A stretch of DNA of 10,277 bases from a virus. Its lineage: Duplodnaviria > Heunggongvirae > Uroviricota > Caudoviricetes. Position 1 is the stretch's first letter; every line of letters starts with the position of its first letter. Shown here piece by piece: positions 1 through 10,277 of this stretch. A program made the translations under genes and the position numbers. The notes beneath the pieces were generated by a model that searched no databases, had not been told where the DNA came from, and saw only the letters and a list, made by a program, of their open reading frames with translations. The stretch lies in IMG/VR virus record IMGVR_UViG_2671180454_000011. One strand, 5' to 3'.

Positions 1-2
1 TT

Positions 3-320
3 CATCGTGCAGTTAAATACCTTCCACCAGCAGGCCATAACGGGCTTACTATTCGTTCACCGTTTCCTAGTGCAGTCGTTGTTTTTAAAAAAGAACCACG
101 TAAGCACGAAATTACACAGACGGTTTGCTGTGGTGACACGCTATTACCGTTAACCATCATTAACAGAGGAGGCTTGAGAGGAAGACCCACCATTTACCCA
201 CCTGAGACGCTCGACAGCTTCATAAAACTATACAGGCAAGGAAAACCCATTAAGTGCATTGCAGATGCTCTCAGAATGCCTCTGAGCACGTCATACAGGA
301 TTGCTCAAAGGTTGAGCTAA
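3..320 (+). CDS. 3' part of a gene entering from upstream of the window; product ends in a resolvase/invertase-type HTH DNA-binding motif
   Basis: Manual translation of + frame 3 gives 105 sense codons from the window edge to TAA 318-320 in AT-rich DNA (…TVCCGDTLLPLTIINRGGLRGRPTIYPPETLDSFIKLYRQGKPIKCIADALRMPLSTSYRIAQRLS*). Absent from the ORF track because it has no in-window start codon. The GRP-(linker)-…G.P…IA..L….STSYRI pattern matches the C-terminal DNA-binding domain of serine recombinases (Hin/Gin/Tn3 resolvase) from memory; residues before GRP do not obviously match a resolvase catalytic domain. Confidence 0.5.
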   Translation, partial: HRAVKYLPPAGHNGLTIRSPFPSAVVVFKKEPRKHEITQTVCCGDTLLPLTIINRGGLRGRPTIYPPETLDSFIKLYRQGKPIKCIADALRMPLSTSYRIAQRLS

Positions 321-411
321 AATTCTCATAAATATGGTCATTTACAAGATAGGTGATTCAGATATTAAGAAGTATCCCTGTGAACAATAAATGACCAATC
401 AGTAATTATTC

Positions 412-442
412 TGTGAAATAATTGTTGCAATTTATAATCACA
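412..442. promoter_or_regulatory. 31-bp imperfect palindrome TGTGAAATAATTGTTGCAATTTATAATCACA (perfect core AATTG-TTG-CAATT); candidate operator or recombination site; contains a perfect TATAAT hexamer at 433-438
   Basis: Read directly: TGTGA … TCACA outer arms and a perfect 13-bp central palindrome, inside the 380-bp non-coding gap between the HTH gene and the rep-like gene. Confidence 0.3.
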
Positions 443-519
443 TCTGTTATAGTTTTTATATGGGGTGATAAAAGAACTCAGAACATTAAGAGGTTACAAC
501 GTTGGGAGGCGTCAGGGTA

Positions 520-547
520 TTGACAGATTTTCACGGCCTCTTATTCA
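520..547 (+). promoter_or_regulatory. Putative sigma70-type promoter TTGACA-N16-TATTCA oriented toward the rep-like gene
   Basis: Perfect -35 hexamer TTGACA at 520-525, -10-like TATTCA at 542-547; about 150 bp upstream of ATG 703. The -10 is imperfect. Confidence 0.25.
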
Positions 548-702
548 ATCAAGGCTTTTCCTTTTGCTGTTAATACTCGCGTAATCGCTCAGGCTTCTGA
601 GTTCCTTTATCAGTCCATCTTCTAATTAATTCACTCCCTCTGGGGTTGGTCACTATACGTGGTCAGCCCTTTCTTTGTTTTATTTTTAAAAAGGAAAATA
701 TA

Positions 703-1656
703 ATGGAAAAATTCCACATGTTTGATGACCGTATTTATCAGATGACTAATGGCGTTAAAGCTGCCGACCGTATTATTTACACTGTCATGTTGAATGAACA
801 AAAGTTTTATCACGATAAGGGGCAATATTATACCCCTTCATATGCTCATCTTGGTCAGTATGCTGGAATCACAAGAACATCCGTGATTGCATGTATGAAA
901 CAACTTGAGGCACATGGTTTAATCAAGAAAACTAACGTTGCAAGCAATCAGTGTGTTATTAAAGTTTATTCACTTGATGAAGTACCGGAGGTTTTAACAG
1001 AGCTTACAGCTAAGGAAGCCAGAAAGGCAAAGCTGGAGTCTAAAGTTACTCAGTCAGTCAAGAAAGATGACCCACTGAGTCAAAATTCTTTACCCACTGA
1101 GTCAAAATTTTTTACTCAGTCAGTCAAAATCTTTGACACGTATAATAACAGTAATAACAAGAAAGAACTTATTAATAACAATAAAGAAGATGACTTTGAA
1201 GAAGAATATTTTAAGAAGGGAGCTTCGCTCTGTGATTCACATGAATGTGATTCTCTTGGTATTGAAGAGGCTATTAAAGAGACTGTTAAAACATCTGACT
1301 TAGATGACCTTGATAGTGAAGCTGCTAAAGAGGTCGTTAAAAAGGAAGATAAAATCTCTGATGTGATTGCTAGTAGTGACCATAAAAACACACAGTGCCC
1401 CGCCACTGATGATGAATTACCGGATGTTGACCTTGATGATGAAGAAGACCCTGAAAAGGAATTGAAACGTGAACAGCGTAAAGCAGAAATTAAAGAAAGA
1501 TTCAGAAATGCGAAGCTAAAGAACAAGGTTAGTGACCTCGATGACTTTGATGATAGTGACGATGATTTTACTTTTACACCAAAAAAGAAAACTCACACCG
1601 AGCCAAAGAAAGAAAAAGTTAAAGTCAGACGTGTTTATGGTGGAGGAATGTTTTAA
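703..1656 (+). CDS. Replication-initiator-like protein: N-terminal winged-helix/HTH-like domain (…YAHLGQYAGITRTSVIACMKQLEAHGLIKK…) followed by ~200 aa of acidic low-complexity sequence; iterons lie inside the gene
   Basis: ORF-track ORF 646..1656 (TTG start); ATG at 703 preferred because AAAGGAAAA lies 6-14 nt upstream. The N-terminal ~100 aa resemble wHTH DNA-binding domains of phage/plasmid initiators (lambda O-like or replisome-organizer-like) from memory; the rest is D/E/K-rich (DLDDLDSE, PDVDLDDEED, SDLDDFDDSDDDF). Functional call is inference from domain look and the internal iterons. Confidence 0.75.
   Translation: MEKFHMFDDRIYQMTNGVKAADRIIYTVMLNEQKFYHDKGQYYTPSYAHLGQYAGITRTSVIACMKQLEAHGLIKKTNVASNQCVIKVYSLDEVPEVLTELTAKEARKAKLESKVTQSVKKDDPLSQNSLPTESKFFTQSVKIFDTYNNSNNKKELINNNKEDDFEEEYFKKGASLCDSHECDSLGIEEAIKETVKTSDLDDLDSEAAKEVVKKEDKISDVIASSDHKNTQCPATDDELPDVDLDDEEDPEKELKREQRKAEIKERFRNAKLKNKVSDLDDFDDSDDDFTFTPKKKTHTEPKKEKVKVRRVYGGGMF
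1046..1133. repeat. Four tandem 22-bp iterons (A-B-B-A): TTACTCAGTCAGTCAAGAAAGA / TGACCCACTGAGTCAAAATTCT / TTACCCACTGAGTCAAAATTTT / TTACTCAGTCAGTCAAAATCTT
   Basis: Hexamer AGTCAA occurs at 1056, 1078, 1100, 1122 (exact 22-bp spacing, counted by hand). Units 1 and 4 are near-identical, as are units 2 and 3. Located within the rep-like ORF. Confidence 0.75.
1134..1200. other. AT-rich tract directly 3' of the iterons with three copies of TAATAACA (1143, 1152, 1173); candidate DNA-unwinding element of an intragenic origin
   Basis: Read directly; position relative to the iterons mirrors the ori-lambda layout (iterons followed by AT-rich region inside gene O). Confidence 0.4.
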
Positions 1657-1952
1657 TGAAAACTTATAATGGCGAGAGAAAATACCGTGACTATTTACTC
1701 AGACGTTACAGCATTTCTCGTGAAGGTTACTTGATGAAAGATACTCACGGGGAAGTTTACCGGATTCGACCGAAGAAAGAAGGGAGGGATTATTATTTCG
1801 TCGATGATGTGACAGATTTAAAGATTGACGCTTTGAAGTTTGCGGTGCTGTATCATTACGATTTATGGGATTCAGTCCACCAGCTACGATTAAAAGACGG
1901 TGACCCCGGTAATCTGAGGGCCACCAATATTATCAAGGGAAAGTGCCGGTAA
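1656..1952 (+). CDS. Hypothetical 98-aa protein, translationally coupled to the rep-like gene (TAATG overlap); faint resemblance to AP2/NUMOD4-HNH-like small phage proteins
   Basis: ORF track; ATG 1656 overlaps the rep TAA stop; GGTGGAGGA SD about 10 nt upstream. The motifs YSISREGYL and KDGDPGNLRATN loosely recall NUMOD4 and HNH segments, but the catalytic His placement does not fit, so this is not a confident call. Confidence 0.65.
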   Translation: MKTYNGERKYRDYLLRRYSISREGYLMKDTHGEVYRIRPKKEGRDYYFVDDVTDLKIDALKFAVLYHYDLWDSVHQLRLKDGDPGNLRATNIIKGKCR

Positions 1953-1961
1953 GGCCACCAG

Positions 1962-2138
1962 CTATTTATTTACTGAAATCTCTATCTCAACACGAAGAAG
2001 TTTAAGTCGAATTGTAAGCTTTGTCTTTTTTGTAATGACTCGATTCATAACGCAAAACACCAATAGCACAATAAATACCGCAAAGCCCAACGAGCTAAAA
2101 CGATGAGATTCAATAATTGCTGTGAAAAAATCATGCAT
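1962..2138 (-). CDS. Small single-pass membrane protein (58 aa: MHDFFTAIIESHRFSSLGFAVFIVLLVFCVMNRVITKKTKLTIRLKLLRVEIEISVNK)
   Basis: Minus-strand ORF 1962..2168 in the track (GTG start); the first ATG (plus 2136-2138) has AAGGA 7 nt upstream and a TTGTCA-N17-TACTAT promoter further upstream. One hydrophobic helix followed by a basic stretch. Lies convergent to the rep operon, with only 9 bp between the two stop codons. Confidence 0.45.
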   Translation of the reverse strand: MHDFFTAIIESHRFSSLGFAVFIVLLVFCVMNRVITKKTKLTIRLKLLRVEIEISVNK

Positions 2139-2188
2139 TAATTTTCCTTTTGTGAAAGGAAACAGCACCTGTATCAGCCCCTACAACC

Positions 2189-2217
2189 ATAGTATCATGT
2201 AAATGAGGTACTGACAA
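2189..2217 (-). promoter_or_regulatory. Putative promoter for the minus-strand small membrane-protein gene (TTGTCA-N17-TACTAT on the minus strand)
   Basis: Reverse complement of plus 2212-2217 (TGACAA) gives the -35 TTGTCA; reverse complement of plus 2189-2194 (ATAGTA) gives the -10 TACTAT; spacer is 17 nt. Confidence 0.3.
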
Positions 2218-2239
2218 TATGTTAAATAGATGTTAAGAT
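2211..2239 (+). promoter_or_regulatory. Putative promoter for the small-gene operon starting at 2276 (CTGACA-N17-TAAGAT); its -35 overlaps the -35 of the divergent minus-strand promoter
   Basis: Read directly: -35 at 2211-2216, -10 at 2234-2239, 17-nt spacer; ATG 2276 is ~30 nt downstream of the predicted start site. Confidence 0.3.
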
Positions 2240-2275
2240 TGTAGTATGAGTAAGAGATTTAAGGAGATTTTTACA

Positions 2276-2566
2276 ATGACTCACACAGTTACGCGCCTTT
2301 TGCCAGAGGCATTTGAACGACTGGCAGCAATCAAAGCCAAATATCCCGATATGAAGCACACAGCGCTTGTTGGGGAGATTTTAAAAGAGTCGGTAAACCT
2401 TAGCCCTTTCGATAACGTTAAGGGCGTCGCAGAGGGTTCTAAGGCCATCAGAATCACAACGGGCCAACTGGAACTACTCAAAGCACAGTCCGCAGTAGCA
2501 GGTTGCTCAATGATTCAGGTGTTAAGCGCTAAGGTCCATCAACTGGCGGATAGATTGGAGGTTTAA
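2276..2566 (+). CDS. Small DNA-binding protein with two consecutive ribbon-helix-helix-like segments (96 aa)
   Basis: ORF track 2246..2566; ATG 2276 preferred (AAGGAG SD 9 nt upstream). Segment 1 TVTRLLPEAFERLAAIKAKYPDMKHTALVGEILKESV and segment 2 IRITTGQLELLKAQSAVAGCSMIQVLSAKVHQLADRL each fit the RHH pattern of a beta-strand, helix, G-x-S/T-type turn and helix (Arc/CopG/MetJ-like), judged from memory. Confidence 0.7.
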   Translation: MTHTVTRLLPEAFERLAAIKAKYPDMKHTALVGEILKESVNLSPFDNVKGVAEGSKAIRITTGQLELLKAQSAVAGCSMIQVLSAKVHQLADRLEV

Positions 2567-2787
2567 TGTGTTATAGGTTCCAATATTCCACACTTGGCCG
2601 CCACCTAATCAGACAGAATTTAGCAGATGCTGAATTTGAAGATGTGACCCTCAAAGCAAACAAACGATTAAAACCCTCTCAAATCCACCAGCTTAAACAC
2701 GAATTAAAGCCACTGGTAATACTCGACTATAACGACCCTGAACAGCTTGAGCAGGGAATTAAGCTTATTTCTGAATGGGGTGCTTGA
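2566..2787 (+). CDS. Hypothetical 73-aa protein, translationally coupled (TAATG) to the RHH-like gene
   Basis: ORF track; ATG 2566 overlaps the upstream TAA stop; GGAGG SD at 2556-2560. Confidence 0.65.
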   Translation: MCYRFQYSTLGRHLIRQNLADAEFEDVTLKANKRLKPSQIHQLKHELKPLVILDYNDPEQLEQGIKLISEWGA

Positions 2788-3002
2788 TGAAAACTATCAC
2801 AGTACAACTTCAGACTAATAAAGCATTTCGTTATTTTGAAAACTTGCTTGAGTTATACGAAGGATGGGGAAGTATCCACGGCAAAGATGATATCTATCTT
2901 CACTTGTCAGCCCCTAACTATTCTCTGAAGACTCCGGTTAAGCAAAGCTGGTTAAAAGACTACGGTCACCAGATGGGGCTATTAGTCTCAGACTTGAGCT
3001 AA
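2787..3002 (+). CDS. Hypothetical 71-aa protein, start overlapping the upstream stop (TGATG); alternative start at ATG 2775
   Basis: ORF track 2775..3002; ATG 2787 overlaps the upstream TGA by 1 nt and has a G-rich SD-like stretch upstream; ATG 2775 lacks one. Confidence 0.6.
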   Translation: MKTITVQLQTNKAFRYFENLLELYEGWGSIHGKDDIYLHLSAPNYSLKTPVKQSWLKDYGHQMGLLVSDLS

Positions 3003-3044
3003 AAACAGCAAAACATATCTCTCAGGCTTTACCAGACGCACCAG

Positions 3045-3119
3045 AAACGTTTTTAAGCCCCTAATCAGGGTAACTTAGGGAATCGCCTTAAGTGGTCTAA
3101 AAAAGGGGTTAAAACGTCT
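3045..3119. promoter_or_regulatory. Nested inverted repeats in the 146-bp intergenic gap: AAACGTTTTTAAGCCCC (3045-3061) vs GGGGTTAAAACGT (3105-3117), enclosing hairpin CCCTAA-N10-TTAGGG (3058-3080)
   Basis: Read directly; AAACGTTT (3045-3052) is itself a perfect 8-bp palindrome. No classical GC stem plus U-run terminator is evident. Confidence 0.3.
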
Positions 3120-3148
3120 TAGAATGCGATACAGGAAGGATTTTAAAA

Positions 3149-3454
3149 ATGAATTACCCAATGCAAATTATGGTTGACCAAGAAACCATGAATTGGTTGA
3201 TTGACCTGAACAGGTCGGGCTTTAATATCTATTTCATGCATTGTTTTGAAGCGTCAACGTATATTGACAAGCATATAATCAACGAAATTAAACTTGGTGA
3301 CTATGTTCACAAGCTGGAAGTAACAGACCCATACAATAAGCGCTTTATCATTGAAGAGTGCAATCGACTTGATTTAAGCCCTGAGCAATTATTGAAGCTG
3401 AATGTATTCTTGACCTATCAGAATGAATTAAACCCTTACAGCGAGGTGATGTAA
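3149..3454 (+). CDS. Hypothetical 101-aa protein
   Basis: ORF track; ATG 3149 preceded by AGGAAGG. Confidence 0.7.
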   Translation: MNYPMQIMVDQETMNWLIDLNRSGFNIYFMHCFEASTYIDKHIINEIKLGDYVHKLEVTDPYNKRFIIEECNRLDLSPEQLLKLNVFLTYQNELNPYSEVM

Positions 3455-3531
3455 TGACACTCGTTATTCTCTGGATGACTTTAGGGTTATTTGTTGGTTG
3501 CTGGGTAGGTAATACGGTAAATAAGAATTGA
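3454..3531 (+). CDS. 25-aa hydrophobic micro-ORF (MTLVILWMTLGLFVGCWVGNTVNKN), translationally coupled (TAATG) to the 101-aa gene
   Basis: Not in the ORF track (too short). ATG 3454-3456 overlaps the upstream TAA stop; GAGGTG SD 5-10 nt upstream; product is one predicted TM helix. Manual translation to TGA 3529-3531. Confidence 0.4.
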   Translation: MTLVILWMTLGLFVGCWVGNTVNKN

Positions 3532-3650
3532 TGTTACCAATCTGTTAAAAAGCTGTTGACAAATAACCTTAAGCATGAGATGATGGTAATAGGGAAGAGC
3601 AACTCTTCCTGAATTAAACTATTAATCATTCTACATCAATGATAGTTATT

Positions 3651-3704
3651 CTGAAAGGTGCAATGCTTTTCGCTACATGACCTTTCAGGTTAGTCTGAGA
3701 GGTC
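3651..3704 (+). promoter_or_regulatory. Mutually exclusive stem-loops: CTGAAAGGT (3651-3659) or CTGAGAGGTC (3695-3704) can each pair with GACCTTTCAG (3679-3688); candidate RNA switch/attenuator-like element
   Basis: Read directly: a 9-bp perfect stem with 20-nt loop versus a 10-bp stem (1 mismatch) with 6-nt loop, sharing the central arm. Lies in a 398-bp non-coding region downstream of a TTGACA hexamer (3556-3561) and of hairpin GGAAGAG-caa-CTCTTCC (3593-3609). Confidence 0.35.
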
Positions 3705-3733
3705 ATCTCGAAAAGTACTCTTGTTCATTCGTT

Positions 3734-3755
3734 TGAATCCTTTTTGAATCCTTTA
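3734..3755. repeat. Tandem direct repeat TGAATCCTTTT / TGAATCCTTTA
   Basis: Read directly: two adjacent 11-bp units, 10 of 11 identical. Confidence 0.5.
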
Positions 3756-3784
3756 GATGTTTTAATTTCTTCACCTTATGAATG

Positions 3785-3810
3785 GCCCTTTATAAGAAAT
3801 TATCTAGGGC
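3785..3810. promoter_or_regulatory. Imperfect palindrome GCCCT-TTATAAGAAATTATCT-AGGGC about 120 bp upstream of the 236-aa gene; candidate operator
   Basis: Read directly: 5-bp perfect outer arms with partial inner symmetry (TATAA/TTAT). Confidence 0.25.
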
Positions 3811-3929
3811 TATTCAGCTTTTAAAAAGCATACTTGGCAAACCGCCTTTTAAGTCTCTTCTAAGTTTAGATAGGCTGTCAGGTGTGCTTTTTAAAAACTG
3901 AAACACTTCCGCTTAGAAGAGGAAAAGCA

Positions 3930-4640
3930 ATGACAAATGATATTTACATTAATGGCAAAGTGATTGATAGCTTCAGTGACTGGTCGCCACAGACTGAACA
4001 TCCAGCTATCACTATTCAGCGTAAAGAGCATGACAAGCGTATTGAGCTTGAGCAATCGCTAAAGATGTCACCAAAAACAACCATCTTTGTGTCTCCTGAG
4101 CCTCAAGAGATGCCTGATATTTGCAAGAGTGAAGCATTACTTGAGCTTGAAAAGAAATATTACCAACTGCTGAAAGAACAGCGCCTTAGATTAGATGACG
4201 CTTACAGCAAAGTTACCTTGATGCAATCAGCTATTGAGCCGTCAGAATTTGAGATTCAGGATGAATTGTCACAGAAACCATTTGTCTATTACCAATACGA
4301 AGATAATGATGGTTTTGGTACTTTTCAAGAAAACGTCGCAGCCGTGATTAGTAGTCTTCCTGCTGGACATCGAATTGTGAAGATGGTTAAGGCATCAAGA
4401 GGTGCTGGTCAGTTTATTTACATGACTAATAAGAGCGATGAAGAACTCGCTGAAATTGCTAGACAGAACATCTTGGCATCACGTAACAAGCAACTTGATA
4501 ATGTTAAGTTGTATCTCTCAAGAGAGCTTCAGGCTATGAAAGAGCTTGTGAAAGAATATGAAGATGCTAAGAAGATTGCTATGCAGGCTGATATTGAGCA
4601 GCTTACGAAGATTTCTAGCAAATATGCAAAGGCTATTTAA
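3930..4640 (+). CDS. Hypothetical 236-aa protein with a helical, charged (coiled-coil-like) C-terminal third
   Basis: ORF track 3882..4640 (GTG start); ATG 3930 preferred (AGAAGAGGA SD 7 nt upstream). No family recognised. Confidence 0.75.
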   Translation: MTNDIYINGKVIDSFSDWSPQTEHPAITIQRKEHDKRIELEQSLKMSPKTTIFVSPEPQEMPDICKSEALLELEKKYYQLLKEQRLRLDDAYSKVTLMQSAIEPSEFEIQDELSQKPFVYYQYEDNDGFGTFQENVAAVISSLPAGHRIVKMVKASRGAGQFIYMTNKSDEELAEIARQNILASRNKQLDNVKLYLSRELQAMKELVKEYEDAKKIAMQADIEQLTKISSKYAKAI

Positions 4641-4664
4641 TTAATAATTAAAAGGTGGTGGTGA

Positions 4665-4871
4665 ATGATTGATTTAACAGAACGCTATGAGCTTATTAAA
4701 GCAATTAGTGAACGATTGAAAGAACAACCCAACAAACCAAAACGAATCAAATCATTCACCTCCTCTAAGCAAAAGAATAGAATCAGGAAAATAGCTAAGT
4801 GGTGTCTTGATAAATTACCAAGTGATTGTCAGATTGTTGGTGAAGATGGTAATTATTATCTGGTTAGGTAA
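4665..4871 (+). CDS. Hypothetical 68-aa basic protein
   Basis: ORF track; AGGTGG SD 8 nt upstream of ATG 4665. Confidence 0.6.
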   Translation: MIDLTERYELIKAISERLKEQPNKPKRIKSFTSSKQKNRIRKIAKWCLDKLPSDCQIVGEDGNYYLVR

Positions 4872-4969
4872 CAAGATTGGTTGGGTGAAAATCTACGGGA
4901 GAGATTATCGAGTGATATCGGTAGTCTTTCCCTTTTTCGTATATGAACACTTAAAGAGGTGAAACATGA

Positions 4970-7150
4970 ATGAGCAAATTCACAGTTGATAGTTTTATCG
5001 TTGAACTTAGTTTCAGTGAAAACGTTATTAAGGGCTTGCAAAGAGTTGAAAAGGCAGCTTTGCAGTCAGCACAAAGAATTGAACGCAATTTGAATAGAGC
5101 GTTTAAGGTCGATACCAAGCAACTTGACAGCAATCTGACAAGTTCTTTAGGGCAGCTTGAAAGGAAGTTTAATAAGACCTTTGACAAGATTGAGCAGAGA
5201 GCAAGAAGCACAAAAGCATTTCAGTTTGCCACCAGATTTAATGACACTGTTAATCCTCCAAAACAATCAAGGCAACCACGAATTAGCGGAAACAGAGCAA
5301 TCACAGCAGCGCATAGCGTGAATATGTCTAAGCTTGGTGATATTAATCCGCTGATGGCTAAAATGTTTAAAGCACAGTATTACAGCTTAAGCGGTAAGGC
5401 TGGTAATATTGGAAGTGAAAAGTTTAACGCTGAACTTGCAAAATTAAATCAATCTCTTCGTGAAACGTTGAATAAACTCAGGTCACAGACAAAGACCGCC
5501 AGCATTAACAATACAAGCGACGCATTTAATAATCTTGCAAGCAATGCGATTAAATTATCTGGTGCATTTTACTCTGTGATGGGTGCTCTTAACGCTTACA
5601 AGGCCATTATGAATGCAGGTCTTAAACGAGATTCCGCACAGAGAGCCGCTAAGTTTGTACTTGGTGATAAAGCATCTGAAGCTGAGGTATTTATTCGAAA
5701 TTTAGCAGACAAGACAGGTCTTAATATCTCTGAAGGGCTATCAAGCTACGCTAAGTTTGCAGCAGGTGCTCAGGGTTCTATGTCACAGGAACAGACACAG
5801 GAGCTATTTGGTAATGCAACGGCTATGAGTCGCTTAATGGGGCTTTCTAACGATGAGCTAAACGGCATTTTGAGAGCATTTGAGCAGATGGCGAGCAAGG
5901 GCAAGATTCAGGCTGAGGAATTACGTGGGCAGTTAGGTGACCGTATGGCTGGTGCATTTAAGCTATTCGCTGAAGCATTGGGTATGACTGCTACAGAGCT
6001 TGATGCAGCCATGAAAAACGGGAAGGTACTTTCCGCTGATACTCTCCCTAAAGTCGCTAAACAGATGGGCTTGATGATTGATAAAGCGGGTGGCTGGGCT
6101 GAAGTCACTAAGAGCACTCAGACAGCTTTAGGTAAGTTAGCAAACAATTGGGATGATACGATGGTGAAAATCTTCTCAGGTTCACAGGATGAGCTAAACG
6201 GCTTCTTATCCAGCCTGAGTAACCTGCTTAGTGAAATGGGGATGAGTTCTTCTATCGCTGGTGATGCTATCGGTGGACTTATCGACATGCTTAAAGCTGG
6301 TGTAGATGATATTCGCGTATTCAATAACACCATTGAAGGCTGGATTTTACAGACTAAGAAGTTCTATTACAGCCTTGATGACACTAAACGAAAACTACTT
6401 GATGAAGTCGGTGATGGTTTTATCAACTTCGTCAAAGGTCTTGCTATAGCGTTATCTGCAAAGACGCTATTCAGTGCTACTACAGGGGTTATGAACCTGA
6501 CAAGAGCAATCACAACGTTAGGTACAAGAGCTAATCAGGTGGCTGGTCAGGTAGCTACTGGTAAAGGTGGTGGAAAACTGAAAGGTGTAGCTGGTGGTGT
6601 AGGTAGTGCTCTTGCAATTGGTTATGCTGATGACGGTTATGAAACAGCGTTAGCATTAGCTTCAATGATTCCACAAATCAGAGGCGTCACTCTTGGTTTA
6701 TATGCATTGAAGAAAGCACTGGATTTTATGAATCAGGAAGTAGTCAAAAACGCTAATATGCATCCGTCTGGGGTAGGTGTGGGTAGTGACTTTAATCCCG
6801 TGTATTCTGGTGACCCTAATAAACCGAATATGATTAACGAAGGATGGAGTAGAATTTTTAGTTCAATGGGTGAATTGTTTAACAATGCCACAATGAATAT
6901 TGCAAGATTCAATCATCCAGAGTTAAACAACATTAAGCAAGATTCAGCATTAACGAGTGCAGATATTCAGGGTCTGAGGGATGAAATTAGTGCTTTGAGT
7001 AAGCGTATTCAGGAGCCAGTGAAAGTTTCACTTGGTGGTCAAGTTGTCGTTCGACCAGATGAACCATCTTTCTTTACTTTCAATCAATCAGCTAATGACC
7101 AGTTCACGCAGGATATGCTCTTAAGTTCAAGCTATCCAGAGGAAGAATGA
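4970..7150 (+). CDS. Tail tape-measure-domain protein (726 aa)
   Basis: ORF track; AAGAGGTGA SD upstream of ATG 4970. Contains the conserved tape-measure core …FVLGDKASEAEVFIRNLADKTGL…ASKGKIQAEELRGQLGDRMAGAFKLFAEALGMTATELDAAMKNGKVLSADTLPKVAKQMG… recognised from memory, a coiled-coil-rich N-terminus and a Gly-rich hydrophobic middle (GKGGGKLKGVAGGVGSALAIGYADDGYE). Role as a true tail ruler is uncertain because no other tail or head genes are in the window. Confidence 0.8.
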   Translation: MSKFTVDSFIVELSFSENVIKGLQRVEKAALQSAQRIERNLNRAFKVDTKQLDSNLTSSLGQLERKFNKTFDKIEQRARSTKAFQFATRFNDTVNPPKQSRQPRISGNRAITAAHSVNMSKLGDINPLMAKMFKAQYYSLSGKAGNIGSEKFNAELAKLNQSLRETLNKLRSQTKTASINNTSDAFNNLASNAIKLSGAFYSVMGALNAYKAIMNAGLKRDSAQRAAKFVLGDKASEAEVFIRNLADKTGLNISEGLSSYAKFAAGAQGSMSQEQTQELFGNATAMSRLMGLSNDELNGILRAFEQMASKGKIQAEELRGQLGDRMAGAFKLFAEALGMTATELDAAMKNGKVLSADTLPKVAKQMGLMIDKAGGWAEVTKSTQTALGKLANNWDDTMVKIFSGSQDELNGFLSSLSNLLSEMGMSSSIAGDAIGGLIDMLKAGVDDIRVFNNTIEGWILQTKKFYYSLDDTKRKLLDEVGDGFINFVKGLAIALSAKTLFSATTGVMNLTRAITTLGTRANQVAGQVATGKGGGKLKGVAGGVGSALAIGYADDGYETALALASMIPQIRGVTLGLYALKKALDFMNQEVVKNANMHPSGVGVGSDFNPVYSGDPNKPNMINEGWSRIFSSMGELFNNATMNIARFNHPELNNIKQDSALTSADIQGLRDEISALSKRIQEPVKVSLGGQVVVRPDEPSFFTFNQSANDQFTQDMLLSSSYPEEE

Positions 7151-7157
7151 TTTAACG

Positions 7158-7998
<841 letters not shown>

Positions 7999-8020
7999 TG
8001 TGCAAAATGGCATCTGAATC

Positions 8021-8125
8021 GATCGCAGTTTGGCATTCGAATCGATCATGATTTGGCATCCATCTCCGATCACAGTTTGGCATCACAATCGATCACGATT
8101 TGGCATACTTCCGATCATTGATTGG
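8021..8125. repeat. Five direct repeats of GATC-N4-TTTGGCAT (last copy degenerate) with 22-24 bp spacing at the IS left end; candidate multiple transposase-binding sites
   Basis: GATC at 8021, 8044, 8068, 8091, 8113; TTTGGCAT at 8029, 8052, 8076, 8099; a sixth partial copy AAATGGCAT at 8005. Counted by hand. Multiple subterminal repeats are a known hallmark of IS21-family ends. Confidence 0.7.
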
Positions 8126-8201
8126 AATTCGCCAGTCACTCCGGGAATTAACTCTTTTCACCACAGTCTCCATTGCCGTGTTTAAACCAGTGGAGACGTC
8201 A

Positions 8202-9767
8202 ATGTCCAAAAAGAGAAAATCCAGGAGCACTATGGAAACTTGTTTTAAGATCCTTCAGCTCAAGTTCGATAAGAAGCTGACTAACCGTTGTATCGGACTG
8301 ACGTTACACATCAGCGCCTCAACCGTTTTTGAGGTTCTTGCCCGCTTCAAAGCCTCTTCTCTGTCATGGCCATTACCTGCGGATATATCCCATGACACGC
8401 TGGAGAAACTCATTTTCCCGCCCAAAGACACCTCTGCGTCAGAGCTTGTTATGCCTGACATGCTGTACTTCGATACGGAAATGAGAAAACCTGGCGTGAC
8501 GCGCCAACTGTTGTGGATGGAATACAAGGCACAGGCGGGTGACAAAGCGATGGGATACTCACACTTCTGCCGTTGCTACCGGAAGTGGAAAAAAACGCGA
8601 CGCCTCTCCATGCGACAGGAGCATCGTGCTGGCGAAAAGCTCTTTATCGACTTCTGTGGTCCTACGGTCCCTGTTATTAATCCGGACACCGGAGAGATAC
8701 GCCGCGTGGCAATCTTCGTGGCTGTAATGGGGGCGTCCAACTATACCTATGTTGAAGCGTGCGAAGGTCAGGACATGATGTCATGGTTAAATGCCCACAG
8801 CCGTTGCCTGACCTTCCTGGGCGGCGTACCGAAGCTGCTCATCCCCGATAACCTCAGAAGCGCAGTGAAAAAAGCCGATCGCTATGAGCCTGTCATCAAC
8901 GACAGTTATCAGGCGCTGGCTGAGCACTATGGCACGGTTATTATCCCGGCCCGCCCGCGCAAACCTAAAGATAAACCAAAAGCAGAAAACGGCGTCCTCA
9001 TCGTCGAGCGATGGCTTCTTGCCCGCATCCGTAATGAAACCTTCCACACGCTCAGGGCGCTGAATGCACGCCTTCGGGAGTTGCTGACGGACATGAATAA
9101 CCGACCAATGAAGGGATACGGTAATCAAACCCGCGCAGAACGCTTCCGCATGCTGGATGCACCAGCACTCTCTCCGCTGCCTCTGGAGCCTTATGAATAC
9201 ACGGAATACAAAGCCGTGAAGGTTGGCCCTGACTACCACGTTGAATATGCCCGTCACTGGTACTCCGTTCCACACGAACTGGTCGGTCAGCGTCTGTCAC
9301 TGAAGGTGGGGCAGTCGGTGGTACAGCTCTGGCACAAGGGGCAGTGTGTGGCGCAACATCCGCGCAGCACACATGAATATAAACACACAACCAATCCGCT
9401 TCACATGCCAGAACGCCACCGGCGGCATGGGACATGGACACCGGAACGCCTTATCGAGCAGGGAAACCGTACAGGTCCGTCCACAGGCCGGGTGGTTGAA
9501 TCCATGCTGAAAGCCAAACCCCATCCGGAGCTGGCTTACCGTGCAGTCCTGGGTCTGCTGGCACTTCAGAAAAAATACGGCCCGGAACGGCTGGAAAAGG
9601 CCTGTTACGTTGCCCTGCACTATAACGCCCCGGACAGACGCTTTATCGACAATCTGCTGCGTCATCATCGGGATAACGTTGAGCTTCCGTTATCCCGCCA
9701 GGGCGAACAACATCCGGCATATGCTTCAGAGCATGAAAACCTGCGTGGTCCTGGCTACTACCACTGA
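8202..9767 (+). CDS. istA: IS21-family transposase IstA (N-terminal HTH, DDE catalytic core)
   Basis: ORF track 8100..9767 (TTG start); ATG 8202 preferred (GGAGA SD 5 nt upstream). N-terminal HTH-like …LTNRCIGLTLHISASTVFEVL…, then a DDE-type core ending in the …PRKPKDKPKAENGV… block typical of IS21-family IstA, from memory. Confidence 0.85.
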   Translation: MSKKRKSRSTMETCFKILQLKFDKKLTNRCIGLTLHISASTVFEVLARFKASSLSWPLPADISHDTLEKLIFPPKDTSASELVMPDMLYFDTEMRKPGVTRQLLWMEYKAQAGDKAMGYSHFCRCYRKWKKTRRLSMRQEHRAGEKLFIDFCGPTVPVINPDTGEIRRVAIFVAVMGASNYTYVEACEGQDMMSWLNAHSRCLTFLGGVPKLLIPDNLRSAVKKADRYEPVINDSYQALAEHYGTVIIPARPRKPKDKPKAENGVLIVERWLLARIRNETFHTLRALNARLRELLTDMNNRPMKGYGNQTRAERFRMLDAPALSPLPLEPYEYTEYKAVKVGPDYHVEYARHWYSVPHELVGQRLSLKVGQSVVQLWHKGQCVAQHPRSTHEYKHTTNPLHMPERHRRHGTWTPERLIEQGNRTGPSTGRVVESMLKAKPHPELAYRAVLGLLALQKKYGPERLEKACYVALHYNAPDRRFIDNLLRHHRDNVELPLSRQGEQHPAYASEHENLRGPGYYH

Positions 9768-9783
9768 CAGAAGGAACAACCGT

Positions 9784-10277
9784 ATGAGTGATAATCTGTT
9801 AAACAAACTGACCCAACTGAAACTCCCGGCGATGGCCGGGAGCCTGATACGGCAACGGGAAACGCCTCAGACTTACGACGAACTGTCGTTCGAGGAAAGG
9901 CTGACACTGCTGGTTGATGACGAGCTTCTGAGCAGAGAAAACAGTCGTGTGGCACGGTTGAGAAAAAATGCCTGCCTGAAATATCAGGCAACACCGGAAG
10001 GGCTGCGTTATCCGGCCTCAAGAGGTCTGCGGGCTGAACAGATGAGGGAACTGCTGAACGGCCACTACATAATCCACAGGAAAAACCTACTGATAACCGG
10101 TCCGACAGGATGCGGTAAGAGCTGGATAGCCAATGCGCTGGGCGAACAGGCATGTCGACAGAAATACAGCGTCCGGTACTGTAGAACCGGGCGATTACTG
10201 GAACAGTTGGCTCAGGGACGTGTTGATGGCAGTTGGCTGAAATATCTGAAACAGTTGCAAAAAATACAGGTTCTAAT
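9784..10277 (+). CDS. istB: IS21-family helper ATPase IstB, 5' part (continues beyond window)
   Basis: Manual translation from ATG 9784 (AAGGA SD 9 nt upstream): MSDNLLNKLTQLKLPAMAGS…NLLITGPTGCGKSWIANALGEQA… with a Walker A motif (GPTGCGKS); open to the window end. Not in the ORF track because no stop is reached. Confidence 0.85.
   Translation, partial: MSDNLLNKLTQLKLPAMAGSLIRQRETPQTYDELSFEERLTLLVDDELLSRENSRVARLRKNACLKYQATPEGLRYPASRGLRAEQMRELLNGHYIIHRKNLLITGPTGCGKSWIANALGEQACRQKYSVRYCRTGRLLEQLAQGRVDGSWLKYLKQLQKIQVL

What the first reader, a model, noticed from the sequence alone, without database searches (positions are those of the whole stretch)
3930..7150. Tape-measure-domain protein sits ~3 kb from a replication module with no head, terminase or tail-tube genes between them
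In tailed phages the tape-measure gene normally lies deep in a late structural operon, far from the replication genes and flanked by major tail and chaperone genes. Here a lambda-O-like ori/initiator is followed by about nine small ORFans, then a 236-aa and a 68-aa ORF and a 726-aa tape-measure-domain protein, and then a decayed gene. Possible explanations are a deletion-scarred cryptic prophage, a satellite or phage-plasmid-like element that kept only selected virion components, or a non-tail use of the tape-measure fold. The 236-aa and 68-aa proteins could be chaperone-like partners, but I cannot support that from sequence.
Basis: partly seen in the sequence, partly recalled or inferred. Interest (0 to 1): 0.6.

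Follow-up and report, generated by a model that had tools for sequence, protein, structure and literature searches.

The report
Phage satellite carrying tail-core genes
This is a decayed Shigella sonnei copy of a compact (~11 kb) mobile island, common in E. coli, that looks like a parasite ("satellite") of Felix O1-type phages and carries its own versions of two tail-core proteins, probably to build hybrid tails from the phage's other parts.

Summary
A 726-aa tape-measure protein (TMP) gene lies 3.3 kb downstream of a Rep/iteron module, with no head, terminase or tube genes between them. The flanks are chromosomal genes (rutEFG–ymdF and wrbA), not a prophage.

The window is the core of an ~11.4-kb island bounded by a small resolvase and a large serine recombinase (LSR). 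About 9% of complete E. coli genomes carry related islands, at three or more att sites, each with its own LSR allele.

The TMP and the "decayed gene" after it are homologues of gp17 (TMP) and gp18 (tube initiator) of virulent Felix O1-like myophages (Ounavirinae). Two non-coding stretches upstream of the island's operon match Ounavirinae DNA only. The island's GC (39%) matches these phages.

The attP junction I predicted occurs in one 11,473-bp metagenome contig that is a circular permutation of a whole element, so an excised form exists.

Best reading: a satellite of Felix O1-like phages that substitutes its own TMP and tube initiator into chimeric tails, as shown experimentally for Vibrio PLEs in 2026. 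The S. sonnei copy is crippled by a 74-bp deletion and IS insertions. The 236-aa and 68-aa proteins remain orphans. This is a new variant of a known kind.

The parts
1..320 (+). 3' end of a Dam-type N6-adenine methyltransferase gene with a C-terminal resolvase-type HTH. It is the first gene of the island's rightward operon and starts 342 nt upstream of the window.
   Evidence: L005:4689-5351 product hits PF05869 Dam at 1.4e-14 and PF02796 HTH_7. Window offset.
703..1656 (+). Replication initiator (317 aa from the ATG at 703; the mechanical ORF starts at TTG 646). Winged-helix N-terminal domain and acidic, low-complexity C-terminus.
   Evidence: phrog_8102/428 'replication initiation protein' at ~1e-10 and phrog_678 'O-like' at 4e-7; weak Pfam HTH/DnaD_N. 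Gene calls. Alleles in relatives are only 40-47% identical.
1046..1127 (.). Three 16-nt direct repeats, TTACTCAGTCAGTCAA (two identical copies and one 81% copy; spacing 44 and 22 nt), inside the rep gene. Putative iteron origin, laid out as in lambda O.
   Evidence: the repeat finder family D5 at L005:6077/6121/6143, equal to window 1046/1090/1112.
1656..3454 (+). Five small ORFs of unknown function (98, 96, 73, 71 and 101 aa at 1656-1952, 2276-2566, 2566-2787, 2787-3002 and 3149-3454), plus a 58-aa call on the minus strand (1962-2138).
   Evidence: No Pfam, PHROG, NCBIfam or PADLOC hits. Conserved at 81-98% in E. coli relatives.
3813..3902 (+). Long imperfect hairpin just upstream of the ribosome-binding site of the 236-aa gene.
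   Evidence: Inverted repeat I3, 27-nt arms, 85% complementary. RNA fold -44.1 kcal/mol, z = -4.8, 0 of 200 shuffles as stable.
3930..4640 (+). 236-aa orphan protein: coiled-coil hairpin plus a small alpha/beta domain. Function unknown. NCBI labels it 'transposase', which nothing here supports.
4665..4871 (+). 68-aa orphan protein: N-terminal helix, basic linker, small C-terminal beta/alpha unit. It always sits immediately upstream of the TMP gene.
   Evidence: 59 clusters, those with a source name being E. coli or E. albertii. Alleles are 43-93% identical with invariant W46, C47, D49, P52, D54, Q56 and G59. AF2 pLDDT 74, pTM 0.29, with no fold or sequence match.
4897..4932 (+). Intrinsic-terminator-like hairpin (15-bp stem followed by TTTTT) between the 68-aa gene and the TMP gene.
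   Evidence: z = -3.0.
4970..7150 (+). Intact tape-measure protein (726 aa), a divergent homologue of Felixounavirus gp17. Similarity to the phage protein is concentrated in residues 1-45, about 290-400 and the last 10 residues.
   Evidence: dN/dS of 0.12-0.31 among island alleles.
7152..7226 (+). Hairpin in the 156-nt spacer after the TMP stop codon. The phage has no such spacer: its TMP and tube-initiator genes abut.
   Evidence: Inverted repeat I10, fold z = -3.1, alignment A1.
7307..8000 (+). Pseudogene of the tube initiator (annotated 'phage baseplate protein', homologue of Bas63 gp18). It has a 74-bp deletion at 7454|7455 (frameshift, stop at 7459). Its last 21 nt are separated from it by the IS21 insertion.
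   Evidence: Alignment with the intact E. coli copy and phage garuso. The intact relative hits PDB 9ndy_A 'Tube initiator protein (gp018)' at E 3.6e-114. Megablast 92-93% identity to about 200 Felixounavirus records over 7331-7766.
8001..10277 (+). IS21-family insertion sequence (istA 8232-9767; istB from 9784, cut by the window end). It is not part of the island proper.
   Evidence: PF00665 and PF22483 in IstA; IstB_IS21. GC is 52.5% against 39.3% for positions 1-8004.

Best explanation
The window is the central part of an integrative ~11.4-kb island. Its gene order is: small resolvase, Dam-HTH methylase, Rep with internal iterons, small ORFs, 236 aa, 68 aa, TMP, tube initiator, large serine recombinase. 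The island belongs to a family best read as satellites of virulent Felix O1-like myophages (Ounavirinae).

Proposed cycle. Shown: site-specific integration by an LSR with a 7-bp core, at yecE in L013; copies at wrbA and yciI-tonB carry different LSR alleles. Shown: an excised circular or concatemeric form exists. Inferred: infection by a Felix O1-like helper switches on the rightward operon, whose upstream region carries two helper-derived non-coding segments. Inferred: the island excises and replicates from its own Rep/iteron origin. Inferred: its TMP and tube initiator replace the helper's gp17 and gp18 at the first step of tail assembly on the helper's hub. The satellite proteins keep similarity to the helper proteins mainly in these parts: the TMP C-terminal tip (which in Bas63 contacts the hub and puncture apparatus), the TMP N-terminal 45 residues and core domain, and the tube-like N-domain of the initiator. 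The result would be chimeric tails built otherwise from helper parts, to the helper's cost. This is the mechanism demonstrated experimentally for Vibrio PLE and phage ICP1.

The S. sonnei copy in this window can no longer do this. Its tube-initiator gene is frameshifted and hit by an IS, and its integrase is split by an IS. Only the TMP, the 236-aa and 68-aa genes, Rep and dam remain intact.
For: Compact, conserved mobile element. The same gene order occurs at yciI-tonB, inside yecE and at wrbA, with intact LSRs of 507 and 547 aa carrying Resolvase, Recombinase and Zn_ribbon domains. The LSR alleles are 28-34% identical, one per site. The junctions in yecE are precise: attB, attL and attR share the core AAAATCA, and the reconstructed attP has flanking inverted repeats TAGTGTATTTA / TAAATACACTA. 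Matches occur in 468-506 of 5426 complete E. coli genomes, all chromosomal, with up to 3-4 places per genome.

Excised form. The predicted attP 24-mer occurs once in metagenome contigs. The contig is 11,473 bp, 39.5% GC and has no chromosomal flank. It is a circular permutation of a whole element, and its rep ORF is continuous across the contig ends.

Helper link, four independent lines. (1) The TMP is 33-36% identical to Felixounavirus TMP. It is 726 aa against 735-742 aa, with about 78% identity over residues 1-45, 73-87% over about 299-345, and an identical C-terminal LLSSSYPEEE. (2) The N-terminal ~185 aa of the tube initiator are about 97% identical to the phage protein despite dS = 0.55 (dN = 0.07), while the C-terminal ~75 aa have diverged. 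(3) Two non-coding segments upstream of dam match Ounavirinae records only. One is 63 nt at 86% identity in 253 records, located in the phage's divergent intergenic control region. The other is 42 nt at 88%, located in a CDS-free repeat region. (4) GC is 39.3%, against 38.9-39.2% reported for the Ounavirinae cluster that is almost entirely felixounaviruses (preprint 10.1101/2020.01.19.911818).

Contacts. In Bas63 the C-terminal 25 residues of the TMP contact the hub and puncture apparatus, and gp18 is the hexameric tube initiator (PMC12609058).

Precedent. PLEs encode a chaperone, a TMP and a hub protein, and PLE11 virions were shown to carry the PLE TMP while excluding ICP1's TMP and hub protein (PMC12987554). 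Putative E. coli satellites with a TMP and a baseplate gene were described in 2023 (PMC10448857).

Functional constraint. TMP dN/dS is 0.12-0.31.
Against: No helper-dependent induction, packaging or transfer has been shown. The excised form rests on one contig from a sample of unknown type, and integration of a dimer could mimic it. No packaging signal, small terminase or capsid-size factor was recognised, so it is unclear how 11 kb would be packaged into an 86-kb-genome capsid. Island TMP alleles differ greatly from each other (39%) and from every sequenced phage (<40%), so compatibility with helper parts is inferred only from the conserved termini and core. No Felix-type phage carries an Odn-like nuclease with this Rep's DNA-binding domain (no tblastn hit), so the arms-race signature seen for other satellites is absent. 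The function of the shared non-coding segments is unknown. The copy in this window is partly dead.
Confidence: 0.62

Rival explanations
1. Tail-assembly interference (defence) rather than hitch-hiking. The island's TMP and/or tube initiator, or the 68-aa or 236-aa proteins, act as dominant-negative decoys or inhibitors. They would poison tail assembly of infecting Felix O1-like phages and protect the clone, without the island necessarily being packaged.
For: Tail-assembly blockers are an established defence class on prophages and satellites: Tai (PMC11364771), and Rta of PLE11, an 80-aa protein that acts through the helper's TMP. The island keeps helper-like contact ends on otherwise divergent proteins, which is what a poison subunit would need. 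A conserved orphan 68-aa gene always sits next to the TMP gene. S. sonnei retains an intact TMP although the tube initiator and integrase are dead.
Against: A pure defence island would not need Rep with iterons, an LSR with attP, a second resolvase and an excised circular form. There are no PADLOC hits. The intact TMP in S. sonnei may only reflect how recent the decay is. In PLE11, defence and chimeric tails coexist, so this is partly a complement rather than an alternative.
Confidence: 0.22
2. Deletion-scarred cryptic prophage: the remnant of a larger temperate phage whose head, terminase and remaining tail genes were lost.
For: This copy does carry scars: a 74-bp deletion, IS21, IS3-family and, in some isolates, IS1. 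IMG/VR lists six isolate-derived 'viral' regions containing the 236-aa homologue.
Against: The same ~11-kb content recurs at three att sites with intact integrases and precise junctions, flanked by core genes. A complete 11.5-kb circle has the same gene set. No remnants of other structural genes were found. The only phage relatives of the TMP and tube initiator are virulent Ounavirinae of ~86 kb.
Confidence: 0.04
3. Phage-plasmid or autonomous mini-replicon that merely captured two phage genes by recombination, with no functional dependence on a helper.
For: The element has its own Rep and iterons, and a circular form exists.
Against: There are no plasmid matches among 72,556 plasmids, and all E. 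coli copies are chromosomal. Strong purifying selection keeps the initiator's tube-like domain about 97% identical to the phage protein at dS 0.55. Phage-specific non-coding DNA lies in the operon's control region.
Confidence: 0.05

Closest known systems
[quoted passage not shown]
   Same: Both are small integrative islands with an LSR-type integrase logic and their own Rep/ori, and both parasitise a virulent myophage. Both carry only a partial tail module centred on their own TMP plus one baseplate-core protein. The satellite proteins are divergent homologues of the helper's. A small orphan gene sits in the tail region (Rta in PLE11).
   Different: The host and helper differ (Enterobacteriaceae and Ounavirinae). 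The second tail gene is the tube initiator (gp18-like), not the hub (BhuB). No recognisable tail assembly chaperone is present. The TMP is nearly the same length as the helper's (726 vs 735-742 aa), so no tail-length change is expected, whereas PLE11's TMP is 95 aa shorter and its tails 10 nm shorter. Nothing here has been tested experimentally. No direct sequence comparison with PLE proteins was made.
Putative E. coli satellites of Stephanstirmvirinae phages (Inny, Muut, Mt1B1_P17) described by Barth, Dunham & Seed 2023 (NAR Genom Bioinform lqad076, PMC10448857)
   Same: Same hosts and a similar size (10-14 kb). The layout runs in parallel: Rep, small ORFs, a protein of unknown or capsid role, a ~65-aa ORF, TMP, 'phage baseplate protein', integrase. 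A small resolvase is present. Rep and integrase modules are swapped between members.
   Different: BLASTP finds no similarity between the TMP, baseplate, ~65-aa or 236-aa/MCP proteins of the two families. There is only 29% identity over the Rep winged helix and 30% between the resolvases. The 2023 elements carry a major capsid protein and a decoration protein, mostly use tyrosine integrases at tRNA genes, and are linked to ~150-kb phages through Odn-like nucleases. The present family has no capsid gene and no Odn-like counterpart in phages. None of the five accessions checked is in that paper's Table S6.
Felixounavirus tail core: TMP gp17 and tube initiator gp18 of phage Bas63 (PDB 9NDY; PMC12609058)
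   Same: Direct homologues: E 3.4e-74 and 3.6e-114. The same gene order, TMP then initiator. The TMP C-terminal tip is identical and the initiator's tube-like domain is nearly identical.
   Different: The genes lie in a chromosomal island without sheath, tube, hub, wedge or head genes. The middle and C-terminal third of the TMP, and the initiator's C-terminal extension, are unrelated or strongly diverged. A 156-nt hairpin-containing spacer separates the two genes, and a terminator-like hairpin precedes the TMP.
[quoted passage not shown]
   Same: All are integrative satellites of Enterobacteria. Some carry a predicted tmp gene.
   Different: cf-PICIs are defined by their own capsid and packaging genes, and PICIs by alpA, pri-rep and terS or capsid-redirection genes. 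None of these was detected here by Pfam or PHROG.
Tail-assembly inhibitors Tai, Tab and Rta
   Same: Encoded on mobile elements and acting at tail assembly. Rta is a small orphan protein that acts through the helper's TMP.
   Different: No sequence or fold relationship could be established for the 68-aa or 236-aa proteins. No Rta, Tai or Tab sequence was available for a direct comparison.

Membership tests
Tape measure protein (Pfam PF20155 TMP_3 / TIGR02675) | Score above the curated threshold for the TMP core domain | tested here: met
   PF20155 at 77 bits (cutoff 41), E 2e-21, residues 234-398. TIGR02675 at 57 bits (cutoff 21.35). Eleven of 13 PHROG hits are annotated 'tail length tape measure protein', the best at 4e-93.
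Felixounavirus gp17-type TMP | Full-length homology with a virion-verified Felixounavirus TMP, including the C-terminal tip that contacts the hub and puncture apparatus | tested here: met
   PDB 9ndy_F (Bas63 gp017) at E 3.4e-74. Stretches 1-81 and 151-553 match, and the last 10 residues, LLSSSYPEEE, are identical. Overall identity is only 33-36%.
Tube initiator (Bas63 gp18-type 'phage baseplate protein') | Intact ORF homologous to gp18 immediately downstream of the TMP | tested here: not met
   In this window the gene is a pseudogene (74-bp deletion, IS21 insertion). In E. coli relatives it is intact (262 aa) and matches 9ndy_A at E 3.6e-114.
Phage satellite (general definition) | Integrase and att sites; precise integration and excision | tested here: met
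   Three-domain LSRs. attB/attL/attR core AAAATCA in yecE. An attP-containing circular 11,473-bp contig. In this window's genome the LSR is split by an IS.
Phage satellite (general definition) | Own replication module | tested here: met
   Rep hits PHROG initiator families, and there are three iterons inside the gene. This is a prediction only; replication was not assayed.
Phage satellite (general definition) | Lacks the gene set for autonomous virion production | tested here: met
   About 12 genes in total; only the TMP and tube initiator are virion-related.
Phage satellite (general definition) | Sequence ties to a specific helper lineage | tested here: met
   The TMP, the tube initiator and two non-coding segments find their closest matches in Ounavirinae; the non-coding segments match Ounavirinae records only. 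GC also matches.
Phage satellite (general definition) | Helper-dependent induction, packaging and transfer | not testable with these tools
   Needs infection experiments. The only hint is one excised circle in a metagenome of unknown type.
Barth et al. 2023 E. coli satellites | Homologous core proteins (RepA_N Rep, MCP, Dec, TMP, baseplate) | tested here: not met
   No BLASTP similarity for the TMP, baseplate, MCP-position or small ORF. tblastn of island proteins against L003 and L004 finds only the resolvase at 30%. Rep winged helix is 29% identical over 69 aa.
PLE | Sequence homology to PLE core genes; Vibrio host; ICP1 helper | not tested
   No PLE sequence was at hand. The host and helper clearly differ. 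The analogy is functional only.
cf-PICI / PICI / P4-like | Capsid and packaging genes (cf-PICI); alpA, pri-rep, terS or ppi (PICI); sid, psu, delta, cos (P4) | tested here: not met
   No Pfam or PHROG hits of these kinds in any ORF of the island.
Tail assembly chaperone (gpG/GT-like) for the 236-aa and 68-aa proteins | Homology or fold similarity to TACs; overlapping ORFs with a -1 frameshift | tested here: not met
Cryptic or defective prophage | Remnants of a phage genome in phage gene order within prophage-sized DNA | tested here: not met
   The flanks are core genes. The element's content is conserved and complete at about 11 kb.

The most novel reading that the evidence does not exclude
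An undescribed, widespread family of satellites (about 9% of complete E. coli genomes, and also reported from Shigella, Salmonella, E. albertii and E. marmotae) that parasitises virulent Felix O1-like phages. It would re-seed tail assembly with its own tape measure and tube initiator, and it is wired to the helper through copied helper control DNA. It makes no capsid proteins of its own. If so, tail-core substitution evolved independently in E. coli and in Vibrio PLEs, and a genetically tractable E. coli/Salmonella model for it exists.
Probability: 0.45. Interest if true: 0.75.

Novelty: new variant of a known kind. Interest (0 to 1): 0.6.

Why it matters
Felix O1-like phages are classic Salmonella typing phages. 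They are abundant coliphages and frequent components of biocontrol and therapy cocktails. A common chromosomal island that hijacks or sabotages their tails would affect host range, efficacy and resistance in practice.

Conceptually, satellites were long thought to remodel capsids and steal complete tails. Substitution of tail-core proteins was demonstrated only in 2026, for Vibrio PLEs. An independent, sequence-unrelated lineage doing the same in E. coli, Shigella and Salmonella would show that this is a general satellite strategy. It would also provide a tractable system, with a solved helper baseplate structure (Bas63, PDB 9NDY), for asking which TMP and initiator surfaces decide which tails get built.

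For annotation, the finding explains thousands of 'tape measure protein', 'phage baseplate protein' and 'transposase' calls that appear outside prophages.

Tried and rejected
- Plasmid origin: megablast against 72,556 plasmids found nothing.
- Membership of the 2023 Barth satellite family: the protein comparisons were negative, and five of my accessions are absent from their Table S6. Two Table S6 start sequences were not found in L002.
- Odn-like anti-satellite nuclease in phages carrying this Rep's DNA-binding domain: tblastn of Rep against all phage records found nothing.
- Phage homologues of the 236-aa protein: none.
- Rfam: no RNA family in the window.
- A repeated 'CTTTTAAG' promoter motif shared by phage and island: counts were too low and too scattered to support it. 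The longer shared element occurs once per phage genome, so it is not a repeated promoter consensus.
- Whether the shared non-coding element marks the phage genome end: phage Si3's record starts 32 nt from it, but this is uninformative, and the literature gave no termini.
- Species-representative genomes: only E. albertii and one Enterobacter fragment were found.
- The attP 30-mer in IMG/VR: no hit.
- A closer phage match for the divergent TMP allele of the metagenome circle: none above 40% identity.

Full report
**Observation.** The 726-aa product is a tape-measure protein by every test applied. It hits Pfam TMP_3 (E 2e-21, above the curated cutoff), TIGR02675, and 11 PHROG families annotated as tape measure, the best at 4e-93. 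It also matches the virion-verified TMP gp017 of phage Bas63 in PDB entry 9NDY (E 3.4e-74). The upstream 317-aa protein (703-1656) matches PHROG replication-initiator and 'O-like' families and contains three 16-nt iterons at 1046-1127. Between Rep and the TMP (3.3 kb) there are five or six small ORFs rather than nine, and none of the ORFs in that stretch hits any family library.

**Source and context.** The 236-aa protein is 100% identical to a Shigella sonnei entry. The exact TMP sequence is listed in more than 5,600 blocks of the assembly collection. The window is identical to L006:5032-15308, part of a ~4.8-Mb chromosome. The island is inserted in the 5' end of wrbA: the left junction retains ATGGCTAAAGTTCTGGTGCTTT.

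The S. sonnei copy is damaged in three ways.
- The gene after the TMP has a 74-bp deletion at 7454|7455.
- An IS21-family element is inserted at 8000|8001, 21 nt before that gene's end.
- The large serine recombinase (LSR) is split by an IS3-family element, and some isolates carry an additional IS1.

**The element family.** Megablast finds related DNA in 468-506 of 5,426 complete E. coli genomes. All hits are chromosomal, none is on a plasmid, and some genomes have three or four places. Three annotated examples share one architecture of about 11 kb: (resolvase), Dam-HTH, Rep, small ORFs, ~236 aa, ~68 aa, TMP, 262-aa 'phage baseplate protein', LSR. They sit at three loci: yciI-tonB, inside yecE, and ymdF-wrbA. 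The LSRs have the canonical Resolvase, Recombinase and Zn-ribbon domains. They are only 28-34% identical between sites, and Rep alleles are 40-47% identical. This modular swapping is typical of satellites.

For the yecE copy I compared the junctions with an empty site. attB, attL and attR share the core AAAATCA, and the reconstructed attP has inverted repeats TAGTGTATTTA / TAAATACACTA around it. Among island alleles the TMP has dN/dS of 0.12-0.31, so it is under purifying selection. This is a conserved, self-contained mobile element and not a deletion remnant.

**An excised form exists.** I searched metagenome contigs for the predicted attP junction as a 24-mer spanning the core. There was one hit, ERZ1090866 NODE-760, 11,473 bp, 39.5% GC. 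The contig has no chromosomal flank. It joins the element's left end directly to its right end. It carries the full gene set:
- resolvase
- dam (90% identical to the ECONIH2 copy)
- rep
- three small ORFs
- the 236-aa homologue (58%)
- the 68-aa homologue (93%)
- a divergent TMP (39%)
- the tube initiator (68%)
- the LSR (92%)

Its rep ORF aligns in a single HSP across the contig ends. The molecule was therefore a circle or a head-to-tail concatemer. This is a single observation from a sample of unknown type, and integration of a dimer could in principle mimic it. Even so, it is direct evidence that the LSR/att system works.

**Link to Felix O1-like phages.** The only phage DNA similar to the window is Ounavirinae DNA, in 213 records, and it covers the TMP gene and the gene after it. 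Four lines tie the island to this subfamily.

1. *The TMP.* It is 33-36% identical overall to Felixounavirus TMPs and almost the same length (726 vs 735-742 aa). Similarity is concentrated in residues 1-45 (about 78%), in the core (73-87% over about 299-345), and in the last ten residues, LLSSSYPEEE, which are identical. The cryo-EM study of Bas63 could model only the last 25 residues of its TMP, where they contact the puncture-apparatus helices and the hub (PMC12609058).

2. *The downstream gene.* It is the homologue of Bas63 gp18, the hexameric tube initiator (PDB 9ndy_A, E 3.6e-114). The first ~185 residues, the tube-like domain, are about 97% identical to the phage protein. Synonymous divergence is substantial (dS 0.55, dN 0.07), so this reflects long-term constraint rather than recent transfer. 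The last ~75 residues are strongly diverged. In Bas63 this part is an extension that lies next to the spacer proteins.

3. *Non-coding DNA.* Just outside the window, in the divergent intergenic region between the resolvase and dam, two segments match Ounavirinae records and nothing else. One is 63 nt at about 86% identity (about 140 nt at 72%) in 253 records. In the phages it lies in the divergent intergenic region that separates the leftward cluster (vWFA protein, tRNAs, terminase, head genes) from the rightward cluster (tail protein, lysin). The other is 42 nt at 88% and lies in a ~1.6-kb CDS-free region with annotated repeats. The first segment is present in islands at all three att sites.

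4. *Base composition.* The island is 39.3% GC. The Ounavirinae cluster in the Danish wastewater study, almost entirely felixounaviruses, is reported at 38.9-39.2%.

The 68-aa protein forms 59 clusters; those with a source name are from E. coli or E. albertii. It has an N-terminal helix, a basic linker and a small C-terminal unit, and it has no fold or sequence match. Neither protein resembles the two chaperone genes that precede the TMP in Felix-type phages. The two ORFs do not overlap as G/GT chaperone pairs do. Their roles remain open. Candidates are an Rta-like inhibitor, a TMP chaperone or a capsid-size factor. All of these are speculation.

**Most likely mechanism.** Shown: a compact integrative element with a working att system, its own initiator and iterons, and exactly two virion genes that are constrained homologues of the first two proteins laid down on the helper's baseplate hub. 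Inferred: a Felix O1-like phage activates the island, possibly through the copied control DNA. The island then excises and replicates. Its TMP and tube initiator take the place of gp17 and gp18, so that tails are chimeric and serve the island.

This mirrors what was demonstrated for PLEs and ICP1. PLE11 virions were shown to carry the PLE TMP and to exclude ICP1's TMP and hub protein, and PLE11 adds the 80-aa Rta, which blocks helper-TMP-dependent tail assembly (PMC12987554). Because the island and helper TMPs are nearly equal in length, tail length is unlikely to be the point. Selectivity, or escape from an island-encoded inhibitor, is more plausible. How 11 kb would be packaged is unexplained, since no terminase subunit, pac site or capsid-size factor was recognised.

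**Rivals.** Pure tail-assembly interference (defence) is the serious rival, and it may coexist with hitch-hiking as it does in PLE11. It is favoured by the poison-subunit look of the proteins. It does not explain the replication and excision machinery. A cryptic prophage and a phage-plasmid are both poorly supported.

**Relation to what is known.** Satellites with their own tmp and baseplate genes were predicted in E. coli in 2023 (PMC10448857) and proven for PLEs in 2026. The 2023 E. coli elements have a parallel layout. They differ in having no detectable protein similarity to this family beyond weak Rep and resolvase matches, in carrying capsid genes, and in being tied to ~150-kb Stephanstirmvirinae. 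Full-text searches found no paper linking satellites to Felixounavirus or Ounavirinae. The library is incomplete, so prior description elsewhere cannot be excluded. I therefore classify this as a new variant of a known kind.

**Limits.** No experiment supports helper dependence. The excised form is a single observation. The function of the shared non-coding DNA is unknown. The copy in this particular window is partly dead, so whatever the family does, S. sonnei probably retains at most a residual activity.

Noticed in passing
L005:4561-4623 and 4490-4530 (about 410-540 nt upstream of window position 1): Two non-coding segments in the resolvase-dam intergenic region match Ounavirinae phages only. 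One is 63 nt at 86% identity in 253 records, in the phage's divergent intergenic control region. The other is 42 nt at 88% in a CDS-free repeat region. In S. sonnei the first lies within a perfect 18-bp inverted repeat (CTTTTAAGATAAGAGATA / TATCTCTTATCTTAAAAG). It could be a promoter/operator or a packaging signal.
   Followed up: partly
window 3813-3902: Very stable long hairpin (-44 kcal/mol, z = -4.8) directly upstream of the 236-aa gene, in a 475-nt intergenic region. No Rfam family matches. It could be an attenuator, an operator or a small RNA.
   Followed up: partly
window 4897-4932 and 7152-7226: A canonical terminator-like hairpin lies between the 68-aa gene and the TMP gene, and another hairpin lies in a 156-nt spacer after the TMP. 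In the phage the corresponding genes abut. The two helper-type genes therefore look like separately insulated cassettes.
   Followed up: partly
L005/L006 left junction (~3249-3270) and L014:16440-16520: The island is inserted in the 5' end of wrbA, a locus also used by Stx-converting prophages. The first ~22 nt of wrbA stay at the left junction, and the downstream wrbA is annotated with a different N-terminus (MSV...).
   Followed up: partly
L017:4-2751 (E. albertii NBRC 107761, second contig): A second, divergent TMP and tube-initiator pair (41% and 64% identical to the ECONIH2 pair) in a genome that also carries a 95%-type copy. It is followed directly by chromosomal genes, with no integrase seen.
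   Followed up: partly
L031 (ERZ1090866 NODE-760, 11,473 bp): The circular metagenome element carries a TMP allele only 39% identical to other island TMPs and less than 40% identical to any sequenced phage TMP. Its LSR, dam and 68-aa genes are 90-93% identical to the ECONIH2 copies. The TMP is thus the fastest-diversifying module of the family.
   Followed up: partly
window 3930-4640: NCBI records name this 236-aa protein 'transposase' in many Escherichia, Shigella and Salmonella records. No Pfam, NCBIfam or PHROG model or fold match supports that name.
   Followed up: yes
window 1-320 (gene L005:4689-5351): The island's first operon gene is a phage-type Dam methyltransferase fused to a resolvase-type HTH (PF05869 + PF02796), an unusual domain combination.
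   Followed up: no
window 8001-8130: The left end of the IS21-family element carries several copies of a TTTGGCAT-containing repeat, typical of the multiple terminal repeats of IS21-like elements. The IS is 52.5% GC against 39.3% for the island.
   Followed up: no
L025-L030 (IMG/VR UViGs): Six IMG/VR 'viral' contigs of 13-50 kb encode 82-89% identical homologues of the 236-aa protein. I did not check whether they are islands mis-called as prophages or lie next to real prophages.
   Followed up: no
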